Positions 50,570-54,138 of a stretch of DNA of 64,000 nt are shown here, one piece after another. Origin of the DNA: Bacteroidales bacterium UBA6267 (GTDB lineage: Bacteria; Bacteroidota; Bacteroidia; Bacteroidales; UBA1556); assembly GCA_002440745.1 (NCBI GenBank), contig DJVB01000046.1, forward strand, positions 14,593-78,592, given 5' to 3'. The notes beneath the pieces are model-generated. The model had not been told where the DNA came from and did no database searches. It worked only from the letters and a program-made list of their open reading frames with translations. Numbering within the stretch: the stretch's first letter is position 1; the number at the start of each line of letters is the position of its first letter. The position numbers and the translations under genes are program-made.

Positions 50570-50884
50570 TTACTCATCCAATGTTTTGTAGTATGATAAT
50601 ATTTTATTTACGAAGAAATTTCCGAATTGATCCATATCATAGATGATATACCATGAGGTTCGCTTATTCCTACGATATTGGAAGACCTTTTTACCATGTT
50701 TTTTATGTGAAGAATATTTACAATTAAAATGATAAGTTTTTTTTTCAATATTATAACATTGTTCAACTAAATCGTCAATATAAGTATCAATAAAAGATTT
50801 TGTCAGTTCAATTTTTTCCCATGAAATTAGACCATCAATTATTTTTTCTAAATCCTCAATAACTTGATTATTTATGTAAACCAT
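50570..50884 (-). CDS. hypothetical small protein, possible RelE/ParE-fold toxin
   Basis: Start taken at the ATG at 50884 (MVYINNQVIEDLEKI...). C-terminal 'RTSWYIIYDMDQFGNFFVNKI' is reminiscent of ParE-type beta-strands. It overlaps the upstream small ORF by 17 nt. Confidence 0.3.
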   Translation of the reverse strand: MVYINNQVIEDLEKIIDGLISWEKIELTKSFIDTYIDDLVEQCYNIEKKTYHFNCKYSSHKKHGKKVFQYRRNKRTSWYIIYDMDQFGNFFVNKILSYYKTLDE

Positions 50885-51074
50885 GTTGTTTAATCTTATC
50901 AAAGATTCTTTCCTTTGCCAAAACTCTAAATTCTTCAAGTGTAATATAACCTTCAGGAATGCCATCAGAAGAATTAGAGTTTTCGAACTCAACCGTTTTA
51001 GGATGTTTTCTCAGTTCCCTTATAAGTCTTTTGCCGGTAGGCGTTTCCGAATTGATTTTTACAGTTACTTGCAT
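50868..51074 (-). CDS. hypothetical small protein, possible antitoxin partner
   Basis: 68 aa from the ATG at 51074 (MQVTVKINSETPTGKRLIRELRKHP...). Placed upstream of, and overlapping, the 105-aa ORF. Confidence 0.3.
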   Translation of the reverse strand: MQVTVKINSETPTGKRLIRELRKHPKTVEFENSNSSDGIPEGYITLEEFRVLAKERIFDKIKQHGLHK

Positions 51075-52231: not shown

Positions 52232-52379
52232 AAAGAGAATTCATTACAGTAAAAGGTAGAACGAGATGGCGCTTGGCGCAGTGGCGGATTTCGGAGCTCG
52301 TTCCAGTCAGGTAGGACGGAATGTTACGAGAATCCAGCGTACGACACTCCACGACCTATGCAATGCAATTTACAATTTG

Positions 52380-53633
52380 TTAGGCTTCGTGTTTTTCATT
52401 TACTATTATTATTCCATTTACTTGTTGCTTAAATATTTCTTTTTCAATTAGAATCCTAATTGCAACAGAAACTACTTTATTTGAGAGGCCGAGTTTTTCA
52501 GCTAATTTCTTGTGAATACCTTTTTCCCATGGCTGTTCGGGAAGATTTATTCTAATTAATTCTAAAGTCTCATCATCAATGTGAATTAATTTTCCTTTTC
52601 TTTTTAATTTCTTTTTTTGTCCAACATCATCGCGAGGGGTTTCAACATTTTCAACCAGTTTTAGGTTAATTATTTGTTTTTTCTTGGCATATTTGAGATG
52701 AGAATAGTATGCTTTTACTTGTCTAAACGAACCTGCTATTATTATATCTAATTCATTCTCAGATAATAGAATTTTATCAACCAAAATATTTTTTAACATT
52801 TCAAATTCATCATTAACCCAAAATTCAAAATCTGTGTTTAAGAATTCAAGTTTTAATTCAGGTTGTAGAATTTGAATATTGTATTTCACTTTTCGTTCAA
52901 ATGATGATTGTTGAATACTTGAAATTGATAATTCATTAATTTTATTTAAAACTAATTCATTCGTTCTTTCAGCAAATACATTTATATCTTTTAAACAAGT
53001 TTTTAGATAATTCTCATCGACCGATATACCAACTTTATTAGAGATATTATATTTATTTCTGAAATGAGTGTCCGTCCTTCCTAATTTATGAATAATTAAA
53101 TGTCGAATTTCGTGATATTCAATCATTTTTTGTTTACCCGGAGGAATATGTAATAAATCAATATTTAATTTTTTCTTATATGTTTTTATAATTTCAGTAA
53201 AACCTCCTGATGAAAGATTCCGGCACTCCTTATTTATAATTATATTAAATAAATCGGAAGTGCTTTTCAATGATAAAAGCTGAGCTTGATTAAAAGTATG
53301 CACTTTAGATTGTTCTTTAAATGGAACTTTTGTAATTATAAAAATGTCTCTAAAAGCATCAACAAGAAAAACTTCTAATGCTGAAATAGCTCTAACCAAG
53401 GTTTGTTGATTTAGTGTTTTCTCAAGACTTGAGATACTGTTTTTATTAAAGCTACATATTCCACTGGGTTTAGTGTTAAAGCCATTATCATCAAGAAATT
53501 CTTTATGATGTATATTTTTTTGAAATTTTTTCAATTCTCCAACTTTATTAAAGGCATACATTGTAGAATTTAAAAATTTTCTTAATTCTTTAATTTCAAC
53601 TTCAAAGATTCTATATGATTTAAGTTTTTCCAT
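52380..53633 (-). CDS. orphan HEPN-motif protein with C-terminal wHTH-like segment (putative RNase toxin / defence protein)
   Basis: Start taken at the ATG at 53633 (MEKLKSYRIF...). 'YHEIRHLIIHKLGR' fits the HEPN R-x4-H motif. The preceding helical region ('AISALEVFLVDAFRDIF', 'GGFTEIIKTYKKKLNIDL') resembles RiboL-PSP/Abi-type HEPN. The C-terminus 'IHKKLAEKLGLSNKVVSVAIRILIEKEI' is HTH-like. The DNA is very AT-rich. Confidence 0.45.
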   Translation of the reverse strand: MEKLKSYRIFEVEIKELRKFLNSTMYAFNKVGELKKFQKNIHHKEFLDDNGFNTKPSGICSFNKNSISSLEKTLNQQTLVRAISALEVFLVDAFRDIFIITKVPFKEQSKVHTFNQAQLLSLKSTSDLFNIIINKECRNLSSGGFTEIIKTYKKKLNIDLLHIPPGKQKMIEYHEIRHLIIHKLGRTDTHFRNKYNISNKVGISVDENYLKTCLKDINVFAERTNELVLNKINELSISSIQQSSFERKVKYNIQILQPELKLEFLNTDFEFWVNDEFEMLKNILVDKILLSENELDIIIAGSFRQVKAYYSHLKYAKKKQIINLKLVENVETPRDDVGQKKKLKRKGKLIHIDDETLELIRINLPEQPWEKGIHKKLAEKLGLSNKVVSVAIRILIEKEIFKQQVNGIIIVNEKHEA

Positions 53634-53807
53634 ATTTGCATTGACATGAAGCACAACGAATGTATATCCACCTTTATGGCGGCTATTTCGTATTTAGTTG
53701 AAGTTTGTATATTCAGTTAATTCCTTGTATCTTAAAACTTTATCCGTTTTGAAAATCTTACTTTTGGTTTTCTCCATAGTTCGTAGTTTGATGTGATGCG
53801 ACTAAAA

Positions 53808-54138
53808 AATTCAGCAGCAAATATAGTTATTATCATTGTTGTCCGATAATATTATATTTAGTCCCTACGGGACTTTCTACCAAATCGTAATATCCTTTCT
53901 ACCAATATTTTGTCCCAAACGGGACAGCCCTGTTAAGGGCTAAATATTGGTAGAAAAAAAGTAACCCAAGAAATTCCAAAAGTCCCGTAGGGACGAGATA
54001 TTTCTGGTGTTCCAGCAAATTTCAAGGTTTTTTATCGGACAACAATAAATTACTATTTCAAAACCGGAGGAAAATCAGGAAGGAAGATTTGCTGAATTGG
54101 TTGAAATTTAAACGGAACTCAATATTTCCTGCTTCCTG
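53808..54138. repeat. multiply nested imperfect palindrome (candidate structured RNA or MITE-like element)
   Basis: Arm pairs: 53808-53822/54087-54098 (12 bp plus a 3-nt bulge); 53835-53849/54032-54046 (15/15); 53861-53873/53982-53994 (13/13). A further pair is 53896-53910/53942-53956 (15/15). Central hairpins are gtccc-aaac-gggac (53912-53925) and agccct-gtta-agggct (53926-53941). An extra pair lies at 54076-54082/54132-54138. Confidence 0.85.

What the first reader, a model, noticed from the sequence alone, without database searches (positions are those of the whole stretch)
52380..53654. Orphan HEPN-motif + wHTH-like protein in a sharply AT-rich patch: candidate stand-alone defence or toxin gene
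The roughly 417-aa product has no housekeeping signature. It carries 'YHEIRHLIIHKLGR', which fits the R-x4-6-H catalytic motif of HEPN RNases. That motif sits at the end of an all-helical region of about 230 aa whose layout recalls RiboL-PSP/Abi-type HEPN domains. An unassigned domain of about 100 aa follows, and then a terminal HTH-like helix pair. The gene is visibly much more AT-rich than ppk2 on one side and the OYE reductase on the other. It is convergent with ppk2 and has no obvious partner ORF, so there is no antitoxin candidate. A large palindromic non-coding element precedes it. This combination (HEPN, a nucleic-acid-binding tail, foreign composition, an adjacent structured non-coding region) is the profile of abortive-infection modules. 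I do not recognise the domain order HEPN + unknown + wHTH as a named system.
Basis: partly seen in the sequence, partly recalled or inferred. Interest (0 to 1): 0.7.

Follow-up and report, generated by a model that had tools for sequence, protein, structure and literature searches.

The report
Single-gene HEPN–winged-helix candidate defence RNase
An AT-rich, horizontally mobile gene encodes a predicted HEPN-type RNase fused to a small alpha/beta domain and a winged-helix tail; its rare, unnamed family is scattered across many phyla and often sits beside anti-phage genes, so it is a credible but untested single-gene defence or toxin candidate.

Summary
The ORF is real: 52380-53633, minus strand, 417 aa from the conserved ATG. 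It is the most AT-rich 1.25-kb stretch in the window.

The product has three predicted domains:
- a helical domain (residues 1-242);
- an alpha/beta domain (243-335), followed by a lysine-rich linker;
- a winged helix (349-417).

R177 and H182 (an R-x4-H spacing), E87 and D188 are invariant across about 140 homologs. The motif lies where the HEPN definition places it. Only sub-threshold profile hits support HEPN (Pfam HEPN_RiboL-PSP, PADLOC RTasHEPN). Foldseek against the PDB was inconclusive.

The family is unnamed. It has 253 clusters at E<=1e-30 and occurs in only 31 of 185,579 species genomes, spread over about ten phyla including archaea and CPR bacteria.

No partner gene recurs. Four of eleven informative contexts hold known defence genes: MmeI-type RM, DarTG, a Gabija-like pair and Abi_alpha.

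The upstream palindrome is an independent dispersed repeat, not part of the module. A second dispersed repeat abuts the stop codon. In the closest sub-clade a 13-nt inverted repeat brackets the ORF.

Best reading: a self-contained, mobile HEPN RNase effector or toxin. Function is untested.

The parts
52380..53633 (-). ORF of 417 aa plus stop codon. It is the only gene of the module.
   Evidence: 65 homologs by word-indexed search. 253 clusters at E<=1e-30 by exhaustive profile search.
52908..53633 (-). Residues 1-242: all-helical, HEPN-like domain. Helix 1 = 5-39. Helix 2 = 64-101 (R81, S84, E87). Helical insert = 102-166 (R138, G144). Helix 3 = 167-181. Helix 4 = 207-241.
   Evidence: AF2 models: pLDDT 86.7 for the full chain, and 84.6 with pTM 0.79 for the domain alone. 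Sub-threshold hits to Pfam HEPN_RiboL-PSP and PADLOC RTasHEPN in homologs. Topology matches PMC3710099.
53088..53105 (-). Codons for R177-H178-L-I-I-H182, the R-x4-H motif (predicted catalytic residues).
   Evidence: R177 and H182 are invariant in A1 (53 sequences) and A3 (86 sequences at 21-42% identity). [quoted passage not shown]
52629..52907 (-). Residues 243-335: small alpha/beta domain (six strands and one long helix), with no family assignment.
   Evidence: Foldseek finds only generic ferredoxin-like or BMC-like folds. The domain is kept in CPR members that lack the wHTH.
52590..52628 (-). Residues 336-348: lysine-rich linker predicted as disordered.
   Evidence: pLDDT below 50 for residues 336-348. 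Length is variable in the alignment.
52383..52589 (-). Residues 349-417: winged helix-turn-helix with the conserved motif LPEQPW..GIHK..A.
   Evidence: Weak Pfam hits to RepL and HTH_24 on the query. The family consensus hits HTH_24 (2.5e-4), HTH_11 and MarR. NCBI names one member a 'winged helix-turn-helix transcriptional regulator'.
53634..53666 (-). Conserved 5' leader of about 33 nt that travels with the gene. It holds the left inverted-repeat copy (53645-53657, GTTGTGCTTCATG) and promoter-like hexamers.
   Evidence: DNA similarity between homologs in different contexts stops at 53666. Alignment A5. IR analysis.
52379..52391 (+). Right inverted-repeat copy (GTTAGGCTTCGTG), overlapping the last codons and the stop codon.
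   Evidence: In 1.6 Mb of fetched DNA, the motif with at most 1 mismatch occurs only at the ends of this gene's closest relatives.
53818..53825 (-). TATATTTG, a possible TAnnTTTG-type -7 promoter element. This is weak evidence.
   Evidence: The same motif lies upstream of three other minus-strand genes, but it is not enriched over chance in the window (89 observed against 79 expected).
53835..54046 (.). 212-nt nested palindrome. It is an independent dispersed (MITE/REP-like) repeat next to the gene, not part of the module.
   Evidence: z = -11.6. Absent from homolog loci. Found with different flanks, and as a short variant, in soil, wastewater, sludge and cold-spring metagenomes.
52267..52382 (+). 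Second dispersed repeat of about 115 nt, ending at the gene's stop codon. It is sRNA-like in other copies and not part of the module.
   Evidence: Very high-depth short contigs with different flanks in four metagenomes. The exact 31-mer occurs in two IMG/VR contigs, where it heads a rod-like block of about 125 nt ending in a hairpin and T-run. No Rfam hit.

Best explanation
The gene encodes a self-contained HEPN-type ribonuclease that acts as a conflict effector: an abortive-infection-type defence protein or a stand-alone toxin. It spreads horizontally as a one-gene cassette.

Shown:
- The protein is intact and conserved, with three predicted domains.
- The residues R177, H182, E87 and D188 are invariant, and they lie where HEPN active-site residues lie.
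- There is no conserved partner gene.
- The family is rare, patchy across phyla and AT-shifted relative to its hosts.
- Close homologs sit in unrelated contexts, several of them defence islands.
- DNA similarity between those homologs is limited to the ORF plus a leader of about 33 nt.

Inferred:
- Like other HEPN RNases, the protein dimerises to build a composite R...H active site and cleaves RNA (tRNA, rRNA or mRNA), arresting growth of an infected cell.
- The alpha/beta domain and the wHTH tail keep the nuclease silent in cis and/or target it, and a phage cue releases it.
- The wHTH may also repress the gene's own compact promoter.

Precedents:
- HepS is a solo HEPN protein that is auto-inhibited as a tetramer and is activated by a phage protein (PMC13043305).
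- In Retron-Kva2, a separate protein made of small alpha/beta domains plus an HTH wraps the HEPN toxin and occludes its active site (bioRxiv 10.64898/2026.07.14.738597).
For: - Invariant residues.
- Confident AF2 models whose helix order, motif position, helix-2 acidic residue and helix-2/helix-3 insert match the published HEPN description.
- HEPN_RiboL-PSP is the only recurrent Pfam family. It hits 5 of 53 and 14 of 86 members (best E 1.4e-5). For P0029 the match covers profile positions 14-190 of 191.
- PADLOC RTasHEPN hits 12 of 53 members (best E 9.4e-6).
- A BFVD protein annotated as MAE_28990-like HEPN matches at probability 0.90, TM 0.49.
- wHTH support.
- No recurrent neighbour in 31 loci.
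- Defence neighbours:
  - Type ISP RM, DarT/Macro, AAA_21-RloB and HepT/MNT;
  - Mrr_N plus MmeI/Eco57I-type RM;
  - OLD-TOPRIM ATPase plus UvrD helicase, a Gabija-like pair;
  - Abi_alpha plus MmeI-type RM;
  - in 22 genome loci: Type IIG/PglX-like (x3), MzaA, PDC-S01/S04/S11, RT_UG29, SoFic and ParE.
- Rarity and phyletic patchiness.
- AT shift in 27 of 29 loci, mean -8.8 GC points.
- The conserved unit is window 52376-53666.
- CPR members keep HEPN plus the alpha/beta domain but lack the wHTH, so the alpha/beta domain is the tighter partner of the nuclease.
- Mechanistic precedents.
Against: - No profile hit passes a curated cut-off. The best Pfam score is 23.7 bits against a gathering score of 28.4. 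The window protein itself and the family consensus give no HEPN hit.
- Foldseek of the N-domain against the PDB has no match at E<=0.001. The only HEPN structure in the list is 1jog_A at rank 6, E 0.66.
- PDB sequence searches are empty.
- R/H juxtaposition and dimer geometry could not be examined, because no coordinates or multimer model were available.
- Most contexts contain no recognised defence gene, and the window's own neighbours are housekeeping genes.
- The family is absent from IMG/VR, from annotated phages and from PLSDB plasmids.
- There are no expression data.
- The cis-inhibition step rests on analogy only. The alpha/beta domain here is mostly beta, unlike the alpha-beta-beta-alpha-beta fold described for the retron HB domains. 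No PADLOC retron model appeared among the reported matches.
Confidence: 0.55

Rival explanations
1. Selfish mobile cassette. The 1.29-kb unit bounded by the 13-nt inverted repeats is an IS-like or MIC-like mobile element. Its single protein would serve the element, either as an addiction toxin or, less likely, as an unrecognised DNA recombinase that uses the wHTH to bind the repeats. Any defence effect would be secondary.
For: - The inverted repeat GTTAGGCTTC(A/G)TG sits at -24..-11 from the ATG and again over the stop codon. This is the classical IS layout.
- The repeats coincide with the limits of DNA similarity between homologs.
- In 1.6 Mb the motif is found only at these gene ends.
- Close homologs lie in unrelated sites.
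- The window copy lies between two dispersed repeats.
Against: - The repeat is confined to the sub-clade with at least 64% identity. It is absent at 59-60% identity.
- No target-site duplication was seen.
- About 10 conserved nt extend beyond the left repeat.
- There is one copy per contig and none elsewhere in the window.
- No known transposase chemistry matches an all-helical R-x4-H domain.
- No integrase-like fold was found by Foldseek.
Confidence: 0.15
2. Non-toxic regulator or RNA-processing factor. The wHTH would make it a transcription factor, as NCBI names one member. The helical domain would be a ligand- or RNA-binding sensor, or a benign processing RNase, with no role in conflict.
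For: - NCBI annotates P0226 as a wHTH transcriptional regulator.
- Some HEPN families are non-catalytic (PMC3710099).
- Many homologs, including the window copy, sit among housekeeping genes.
Against: - Invariant R, H, E and D residues over deep divergence argue for catalysis.
- The family is present in only 31 of 185,579 species, is patchy across phyla, is AT-shifted and has no conserved operon. This does not fit a housekeeping or dedicated regulatory role.
- CPR members lack the wHTH altogether.
Confidence: 0.12
3. Toxin of a two-part toxin-antitoxin system whose antitoxin was missed. Candidates are an RNA antitoxin in the upstream non-coding region (as in type III systems or the RNA-regulated AbiF) or a tiny unannotated ORF.
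For: - RiboL-PSP-type HEPN domains are described as distant relatives of AbiD/AbiF.
- AbiF in C. difficile is reported to be RNA-regulated (title and abstract of PMC12373285).
- A strongly structured element lies upstream in the window.
Against: - The palindrome is an unrelated dispersed repeat.
- Nothing beyond about 33 nt upstream, and nothing downstream, is shared between homologs.
- No recurrent small ORF was found among ORFs of at least 60 aa in 31 loci.
- No Rfam hit.
Confidence: 0.06

Closest known systems
Pfam PF18735 HEPN_RiboL-PSP (Ribo L-PSP-HEPN family of Anantharaman et al. 2013, PMC3710099)
   Same: It is the only Pfam family hit repeatedly by family members. In P0029 the match spans nearly the whole profile. 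Both have a conserved Rx4-6H motif, and the family is described as active and distantly related to AbiD/AbiF.
   Different: All hits fall below the gathering score, and the window protein gives no hit. The described fusion to endoRNase L-PSP and the operon with ParB are absent. The alpha/beta plus wHTH tail is not part of that family's description.
HepS, the solo HEPN abortive-infection protein of the Gifsy-1 prophage (PMC13043305)
   Same: Both are single-gene HEPN proteins with a canonical Rx4-6H motif and no conserved partner or inhibitor gene. HepS is the precedent for a constitutively made, self-inhibited HEPN nuclease that both senses and kills.
   Different: No sequence relationship was detected: the PDB sequence searches were empty, and it was not checked whether HepS chains are in that PDB copy. 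[quoted passage not shown] HepS is prophage-borne, whereas this family was not found in viral collections.
Type IX retron effectors (Retron-Kva2: HEPN toxin plus WH protein; bioRxiv 10.64898/2026.07.14.738597; Mestre et al. 2020, PMC7736814)
   Same: The same three kinds of parts occur: a HEPN nuclease, small alpha/beta HEPN-binding domain(s) and a DNA-binding HTH. In the retron, the WH protein alone attenuates HEPN toxicity by occluding the active site.
   Different: Here all parts are in one chain. There is no reverse transcriptase or ncRNA nearby. The retron HEPN lacks the canonical His, while this family keeps it. There is one alpha/beta domain of different topology rather than two. No PADLOC retron model appeared among the reported matches.
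AbiD/AbiF (Abi_2) and other lactococcal HEPN Abi proteins
   Same: They are stand-alone HEPN proteins conferring abortive infection, often AT-rich and mobile. The RiboL-PSP clade is described as distantly related to them.
   Different: No Abi_2, AbiJ, AbiU2 or AbiV Pfam or PADLOC model hits any member. The C-terminal architecture differs.
HepT/MntA (HEPN-MNT) type VII toxin-antitoxin systems
   Same: Both have a HEPN RNase toxin with an Rx4-6H motif.
   Different: No adjacent MNT nucleotidyltransferase antitoxin occurs in the window or in 31 homolog loci. The HEPN domain here is much larger (242 aa, with a helical insert).

Membership tests
HEPN superfamily | Conserved Rx4-6H motif | tested here: met
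   R177-x4-H182 is invariant in 53 and in 86 further homologs at 21-42% identity.
HEPN superfamily | [quoted passage not shown] | tested here: met
   Secondary-structure order in two AF2 models: H1 5-39, H2 64-101, insert 102-166, H3 167-181 ending at the motif, H4 207-241, compared with the definition in PMC3710099. Only topology was checked. The 3D packing could not be inspected.
HEPN superfamily | Conserved acidic residue in helix 2, close to the motif | tested here: met
   E87 is invariant and lies in helix 64-101. Spatial proximity was not testable.
HEPN superfamily | Significant profile or structure match to established HEPN members | tested here: inconclusive
   Pfam HEPN_RiboL-PSP E 1.4e-5 to 1e-2 in 19 of 139 members, all below the gathering score. 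PADLOC RTasHEPN 9.4e-6. BFVD HEPN-annotated hit at probability 0.90. Foldseek against the PDB: best HEPN hit is 1jog_A at E 0.66.
HEPN superfamily | Metal-independent RNase activity from a composite dimer site | not testable with these tools
   Needs biochemistry or a multimer model.
Pfam PF18735 HEPN_RiboL-PSP | Score at or above the gathering threshold (28.4 bits) | tested here: not met
   Best per-member score shown is 23.7 bits (P0029). The query and the family consensus give no hit.
Pfam PF18735 HEPN_RiboL-PSP | Reported contexts: fusion to endoRNase L-PSP, or an operon with ParB | tested here: not met
   No such fusion or neighbour among the top families in the neighbourhood census or in the listed contexts.
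Type IX retron | Adjacent retron reverse transcriptase and msr/msd ncRNA | tested here: not met
   No RT in the window neighbourhood or in the Pfam-annotated homolog contexts. The only RT hit among the neighbours of 22 genome loci is one UG29-class RT. No retron RNA in Rfam scans.
Type IX retron | HEPN effector lacking the canonical His, plus a separate WH protein | tested here: not met
   The canonical His is invariant here, and the wHTH is fused in the same chain.
HEPN-MNT (HepT/MntA) toxin-antitoxin | Adjacent MNT nucleotidyltransferase antitoxin gene | tested here: not met
   None next to the gene in the window or in 31 loci. The HepT/MNT pair in L003 is a separate module 7 kb away.
Anti-phage defence system (generic) | Enrichment next to known defence genes (defence islands) | tested here: inconclusive
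   4 of 11 informative contexts contain recognised defence genes. Several PADLOC hits occur among 147 neighbours of 22 genome loci. No background rate was computed, and many contexts are housekeeping.
Anti-phage defence system (generic) | Protection against phage on expression | not testable with these tools
   Requires experiment.
Insertion sequence / mobile insertion cassette | Terminal inverted repeats at the limits of the mobile unit | tested here: met
   The 13-16-nt IR lies at both ends and coincides with the homology limits, but only in the sub-clade with at least 64% identity.
Insertion sequence / mobile insertion cassette | Target-site duplication, multiple copies, and a recognisable transposase | tested here: not met
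   No direct repeat flanks the ends. There is a single copy per contig and in the window. No transposase family hit.

The most novel reading that the evidence does not exclude
The unit may be a complete, mobile, one-protein immune module: a cassette of about 1.3 kb bounded by inverted repeats whose single product is a cis-auto-inhibited HEPN RNase. The alpha/beta domain and wHTH tail would play, within one chain, the antitoxin and sensor role that the separate WH protein and msDNA play in type IX retrons. The wHTH would bind DNA, either the cassette's own repeats or a foreign or damaged nucleic acid. Loss or capture of that contact during infection would release the nuclease. This would be a reverse-transcriptase-independent, fused counterpart of a retron effector pair, spread across bacteria, CPR lineages and archaea.
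Probability: 0.17. Interest if true: 0.7.

Novelty: new variant of a known kind. Interest (0 to 1): 0.48.

Why it matters
Solo HEPN nucleases have only recently been shown to sense phage and kill the cell on their own (HepS). Retron IX shows that an alpha/beta-plus-HTH partner can gate a HEPN toxin.

This family combines those parts in one chain of about 400 aa. It is unnamed in Pfam, NCBIfam, PADLOC and PHROGs, so current defence-finding pipelines that rely on such models would probably miss it. It reaches archaea and CPR bacteria.

If it is active, it would add a compact, portable single-gene system. It would also offer a tractable model for how a nuclease is held silent in cis. Deleting the tail gives a direct test.

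The finding also shows that a conspicuous neighbouring palindrome can be an unrelated repeat, which is a caution for sequence-only reading.

Tried and rejected
Searches on the window protein that found nothing useful:
- Pfam, PADLOC, NCBIfam and PHROGs gave only weak C-terminal HTH hits.
- PDB sequence searches with the protein and with the family profile gave nothing relevant.
- Foldseek of the whole chain returned only generic alpha/beta-domain hits.
- Foldseek of the N-domain alone gave no significant PDB match.
- The family consensus scanned against Pfam gave no HEPN hit.
- A profile search with the N-domain, meant to bridge to bona fide PF18735 proteins, returned only this family.

Palindrome as part of the module: rejected.

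Attachment-site idea: there is no tRNA near the gene.

Promoters and terminators: sigma-70 promoters are not enriched, and no intrinsic terminator was found.

Searches for relatives in mobile or annotated collections:
- IMG/VR held no relatives.
- tblastn against annotated phages and PLSDB plasmids found none.
- No RNA-seq runs were listed.

Empty-site and synteny test: I used the neighbouring reductase as the anchor. The 80 relatives found are only 51-66% identical, and none keeps the downstream arrangement. The test was therefore uninformative, except that 0 of 80 carry the gene.

The spacer repeat was compared with E. coli genomes, plasmids, phages and Rfam. This gave nothing beyond a chance mycobacteriophage match.

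NCBIfam on the small AT-rich ORF pair and on six unannotated neighbours of homologs gave nothing.

Tyrosine-recombinase-like reading of 'HxxRH...Y': I considered this because of the inverted repeats and set it aside. The domain is predicted to be all-helical, the R-to-Y spacing is too short, and Foldseek found no integrase fold. This is my own reasoning together.
Full report
**1. Observation**

The ORF lister reports 52380..53654 on the minus strand, 424 aa from a GTG. All homologs begin at the ATG at 53633 (MEKLK...), which gives 417 aa. The stretch between the GTG and the ATG differs in length by one base among homologs, so it is not coding.

The peptide YHEIRHLIIHKLGR is present. R177 and H182 form an R-x4-H spacing.

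Gene GC is 0.260 against 0.382 for the whole window. None of 1255 sliding windows of the same length is as low.

The gene is convergent with ppk2 across 148 nt and has no partner ORF.

A nested 212-nt palindrome lies at 53835-54046. It folds at -96 kcal/mol, z = -11.6 against shuffles.

**2. The protein**

An AlphaFold2 model built on 53 homologs is confident (mean pLDDT 86.7). It shows:
- a helical domain (1-242);
- an alpha/beta domain of six strands and one long helix (243-335);
- a disordered lysine-rich linker (336-348);
- a winged helix (349-417).

The N-domain modelled alone gives pLDDT 84.6 and pTM 0.79.

In 53 homologs, R177, H182, L86, L90, L140, G144, G185, D188 and F220 are invariant. 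In 86 further cluster representatives, only 21-42% identical to the query, E87, R177, H182 and D188 remain invariant.

The HEPN census (PMC3710099) defines the fold as follows:
- a conserved acidic residue lies in helix 2;
- an insert between helices 2 and 3 is typical.

The model has exactly this order:
- helix 1 = 5-39;
- helix 2 = 64-101, carrying E87;
- a helical insert = 102-166;
- helix 3 = 167-181, ending in the motif;
- helix 4 = 207-241.

Profile evidence is consistent but weak:
- The window protein itself hits nothing in Pfam, PADLOC, NCBIfam or PHROGs apart from weak C-terminal HTH matches.
- Scanned one by one, members hit only one Pfam family repeatedly, HEPN_RiboL-PSP. It hits 5 of 53 and 14 of 86 (best E 1.4e-5). 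For P0029 the match covers profile positions 14-190 of 191 at 23.7 bits, below the 28.4-bit gathering score.
- PADLOC's reverse-transcriptase-associated HEPN model hits 12 of 53 (best E 9.4e-6).
- Foldseek of the full chain against BFVD finds an uncharacterised phage protein (E 4.9e-4) and a protein annotated as MAE_28990-like HEPN (probability 0.90).
- Foldseek against the PDB finds nothing significant for either model. The only HEPN structure listed is HI0074 (1jog) at E 0.66.

I therefore rate 'HEPN-fold nuclease domain' as likely, at about 0.8. It is not proven, and the protein is not a member of PF18735 by that family's own threshold.

The C-terminal consensus hits HTH_24, HTH_11 and MarR. 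NCBI names one member a winged helix-turn-helix regulator.

The motif LPEQPW..GIHK..A in this domain is conserved across phyla. That suggests a conserved ligand or an intramolecular contact, rather than diverse operators. This is inference.

**3. The family and its contexts**

The word-indexed search found 65 homologs. The exhaustive profile search found 1911 cluster representatives at E<=1e-3, 502 at <=1e-10 and 253 at <=1e-30. Most of the best 150 are full length. Almost all are called hypothetical proteins.

Among one genome per species (185,579 species), only 31 loci encode a relative. They come from Bacteroidota, Marinimicrobia, Desulfobacterota, Chloroflexota, Cyanobacteria (one on a Leptolyngbya plasmid), Abditibacteriota, Firmicutes, Saccharibacteria, Paceibacterota and a Promethearchaeota MAG. 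A Nitrosocosmicus archaeon also has one.

None was found in IMG/VR, in annotated phages or in PLSDB plasmids.

Paceibacterota members end after the alpha/beta domain and lack the wHTH. HEPN plus the alpha/beta domain is therefore the conserved core.

All-against-all comparison of 288 neighbouring ORFs from 31 loci found no recurrent partner. The only shared neighbours are between two Flavobacterium species. There the gene occupies the same slot, accompanied by different extra genes.

Of eleven informative contexts recovered through exact-protein look-ups, four contain recognised defence genes close by:
- a Type ISP RM enzyme directly upstream, plus DarT/Macro, AAA_21-RloB and HepT/MNT;
- Mrr_N plus an MmeI/Eco57I-type enzyme;
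- an OLD-TOPRIM ATPase with a UvrD helicase, a Gabija-like pair, directly downstream;
- Abi_alpha plus an MmeI-type enzyme.

Among 147 neighbours from 22 genome loci, PADLOC models hit Type IIG/PglX-like enzymes (three proteins), MzaA, PDC-S01/S04/S11, an RT_UG29 with its DnaG-like partner, and SoFic. Pfam adds ParE toxins and resolvases. Most neighbours, however, are ordinary metabolic genes.

The other contexts, including the window's own, are housekeeping.

The association with defence islands is therefore real in a subset. It has not been quantified against a background.

**4. Mobility**

Homologs 64-86% identical to the window protein lie in entirely different neighbourhoods.

Their DNA similarity to the window runs only from 52376 to 53666. 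That is the ORF, a few bases past the stop codon, and about 33 nt of leader.

The gene is more AT-rich than its flanks in 27 of 29 loci, by 8.8 GC points on average.

In the leader, the block TATACAAnCGTTAGGCTTCATGTnAAnnAAAAATGG is conserved better than the coding DNA.

Its core, GTTAGGCTTCATG, recurs in inverse orientation over the last codons and the stop codon (GTTAGGCTTCGTG; window 52379-52391). This inverted repeat is seen in the window, L047/48, L011/12, L050/51 and partly in L049. In 1.6 Mb of fetched DNA, the motif with at most one mismatch occurs nowhere else.

It is absent from homologs at 59-60% identity. I saw no target-site duplication.

The repeat may mark the ends of a small mobile cassette. 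It may be a pair of operators for the protein's own wHTH, since the left copy lies between promoter-like hexamers. Or it may pair the mRNA ends. I cannot decide between these.

The synteny scan with the neighbouring reductase gave 80 loci at 51-66% identity. None keeps the downstream arrangement or carries the gene, so no empty site could be examined.

**5. The flanking non-coding elements**

The palindrome is not part of the module:
- No comparable element precedes homologs.
- It is absent from 1.5 Mb of fetched loci.
- Its 31-mers are held by more sequencing runs, and at higher share, than its flanks.
- In soil, wastewater, sludge and cold-spring metagenomes, several contigs match only 53834-54048 at 90-99% identity and then continue into different sequences. 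One variant lacks the central 104 nt.

It is a dispersed MITE/REP-like repeat with perfect 15-nt termini (ATTGTTGTCCGATAA).

A second repeat lies at 52267-52382 and ends at the gene's stop codon. It matches very short contigs of very high depth (up to 244x) with different flanks in four metagenomes.

Its exact 31-mer occurs in two IMG/VR contigs. There it heads a rod-like block of about 125 nt that ends in a hairpin and a T-run, with no Rfam match.

The window copy lacks the closing strand and has no significant fold. It looks truncated or diverged where the cassette begins.

The gene thus sits between two unrelated repeats, which fits a recombination-prone spot.

**6. Mechanism**

Shown:
- a conserved three-domain protein;
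- HEPN-type invariant residues in the right places;
- single-gene organisation;
- horizontal mobility;
- partial defence-island association.

Inferred from established HEPN biology (PMC3710099; the HepS paper, PMC13043305):
- dimerisation creates a composite R...H site that cleaves RNA;
- such nucleases are kept silent until a phage cue arrives.

Inferred by analogy with Retron-Kva2: in that system, a partner built of small alpha/beta domains plus an HTH wraps the HEPN toxin, occludes its active site and attenuates toxicity. By analogy, the fused alpha/beta and wHTH tail would gate or target the nuclease. This last step has no direct support here, and the topology of the alpha/beta domain differs from the retron's.

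I put the overall 'conflict RNase' reading at 0.55. The rivals are a selfish IS-like cassette (0.15), a benign regulator or processing factor (0.12) and a two-part toxin-antitoxin system with a missed antitoxin (0.06).

**7. Novelty and verdict**

The kind of system is known: stand-alone HEPN effectors, and HEPN with HTH partners. This family and its fused HEPN-alpha/beta-wHTH architecture match no named system in the libraries I searched, and I found no paper describing it. I classify it as a new variant of a known kind.

It is a reasonable candidate for experimental test, but not a surprise to a specialist. Interest is 0.48.

The source is a hydrocarbon-associated metagenome. The host phylum was not determined here.

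Noticed in passing
window 53835-54046: The 212-nt nested palindrome has perfect 15-nt termini (ATTGTTGTCCGATAA) and inner GYCCC-loop-GGGRC hairpins. It is a dispersed MITE/REP-like repeat. Copies with different flanks, and a variant lacking the central 104 nt, occur in soil, wastewater, sludge and cold-spring metagenomes.
   Followed up: yes
window 52267-52382; L132:5880-6010; L133:4882-5012: A GC-rich element of about 115 nt abuts the gene's stop codon. It matches tiny contigs of very high depth in four unrelated metagenomes. Its exact 31-mer heads a rod-like, terminator-ended, sRNA-like block of about 125 nt in two IMG/VR contigs. It has no Rfam family. The window copy lacks the closing strand.
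   Followed up: partly
window 52379-52391 (+) and 53645-53657 (-): A 13-nt inverted repeat, GTTAGGCTTC(A/G)TG, brackets the ORF in the window and in homologs of at least 64% identity. It coincides with the limits of shared DNA. It could be the termini of a mobile cassette, a pair of operators, or an mRNA end-pairing signal. Which of these applies is unresolved.
   Followed up: partly
window 50570-51074 (-): A second AT-rich patch (GC 0.26-0.30) lies on the other side of ppk2. It holds two small overlapping ORFs of 68 and 104 aa with a 17-nt overlap, preceded by a TATATTTG motif. The layout resembles a toxin-antitoxin pair. Neither ORF has a precomputed Pfam hit on record or a meaningful NCBIfam hit.
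   Followed up: partly
L003:6767-9937; L013:1946-4813; L134:10306-13320: MmeI-type Type IIG or Type ISP restriction-modification enzymes recur within a few genes of family members in independent contexts. Three PADLOC Type IIG/PglX-like hits also occur among the genome-locus neighbours.
   Followed up: partly
L024:3822-10862 and L026:6253-11931: In two Flavobacterium species the family gene occupies the same chromosomal slot between conserved flanking genes, but with different additional ORFs. This looks like a variable hotspot.
   Followed up: no
P0131, P0168 (Paceibacterota); L039, L040, L042 (Saccharibacteria/Paceibacterota): CPR-lineage members of the family end after the alpha/beta domain and lack the winged helix.
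   Followed up: partly
L008:8547-9854 versus L007: In one of two otherwise identical contexts of homolog P0051, a Mutator-family transposase is inserted directly upstream of the gene, and an IS110-family transposase lies nearby.
   Followed up: no
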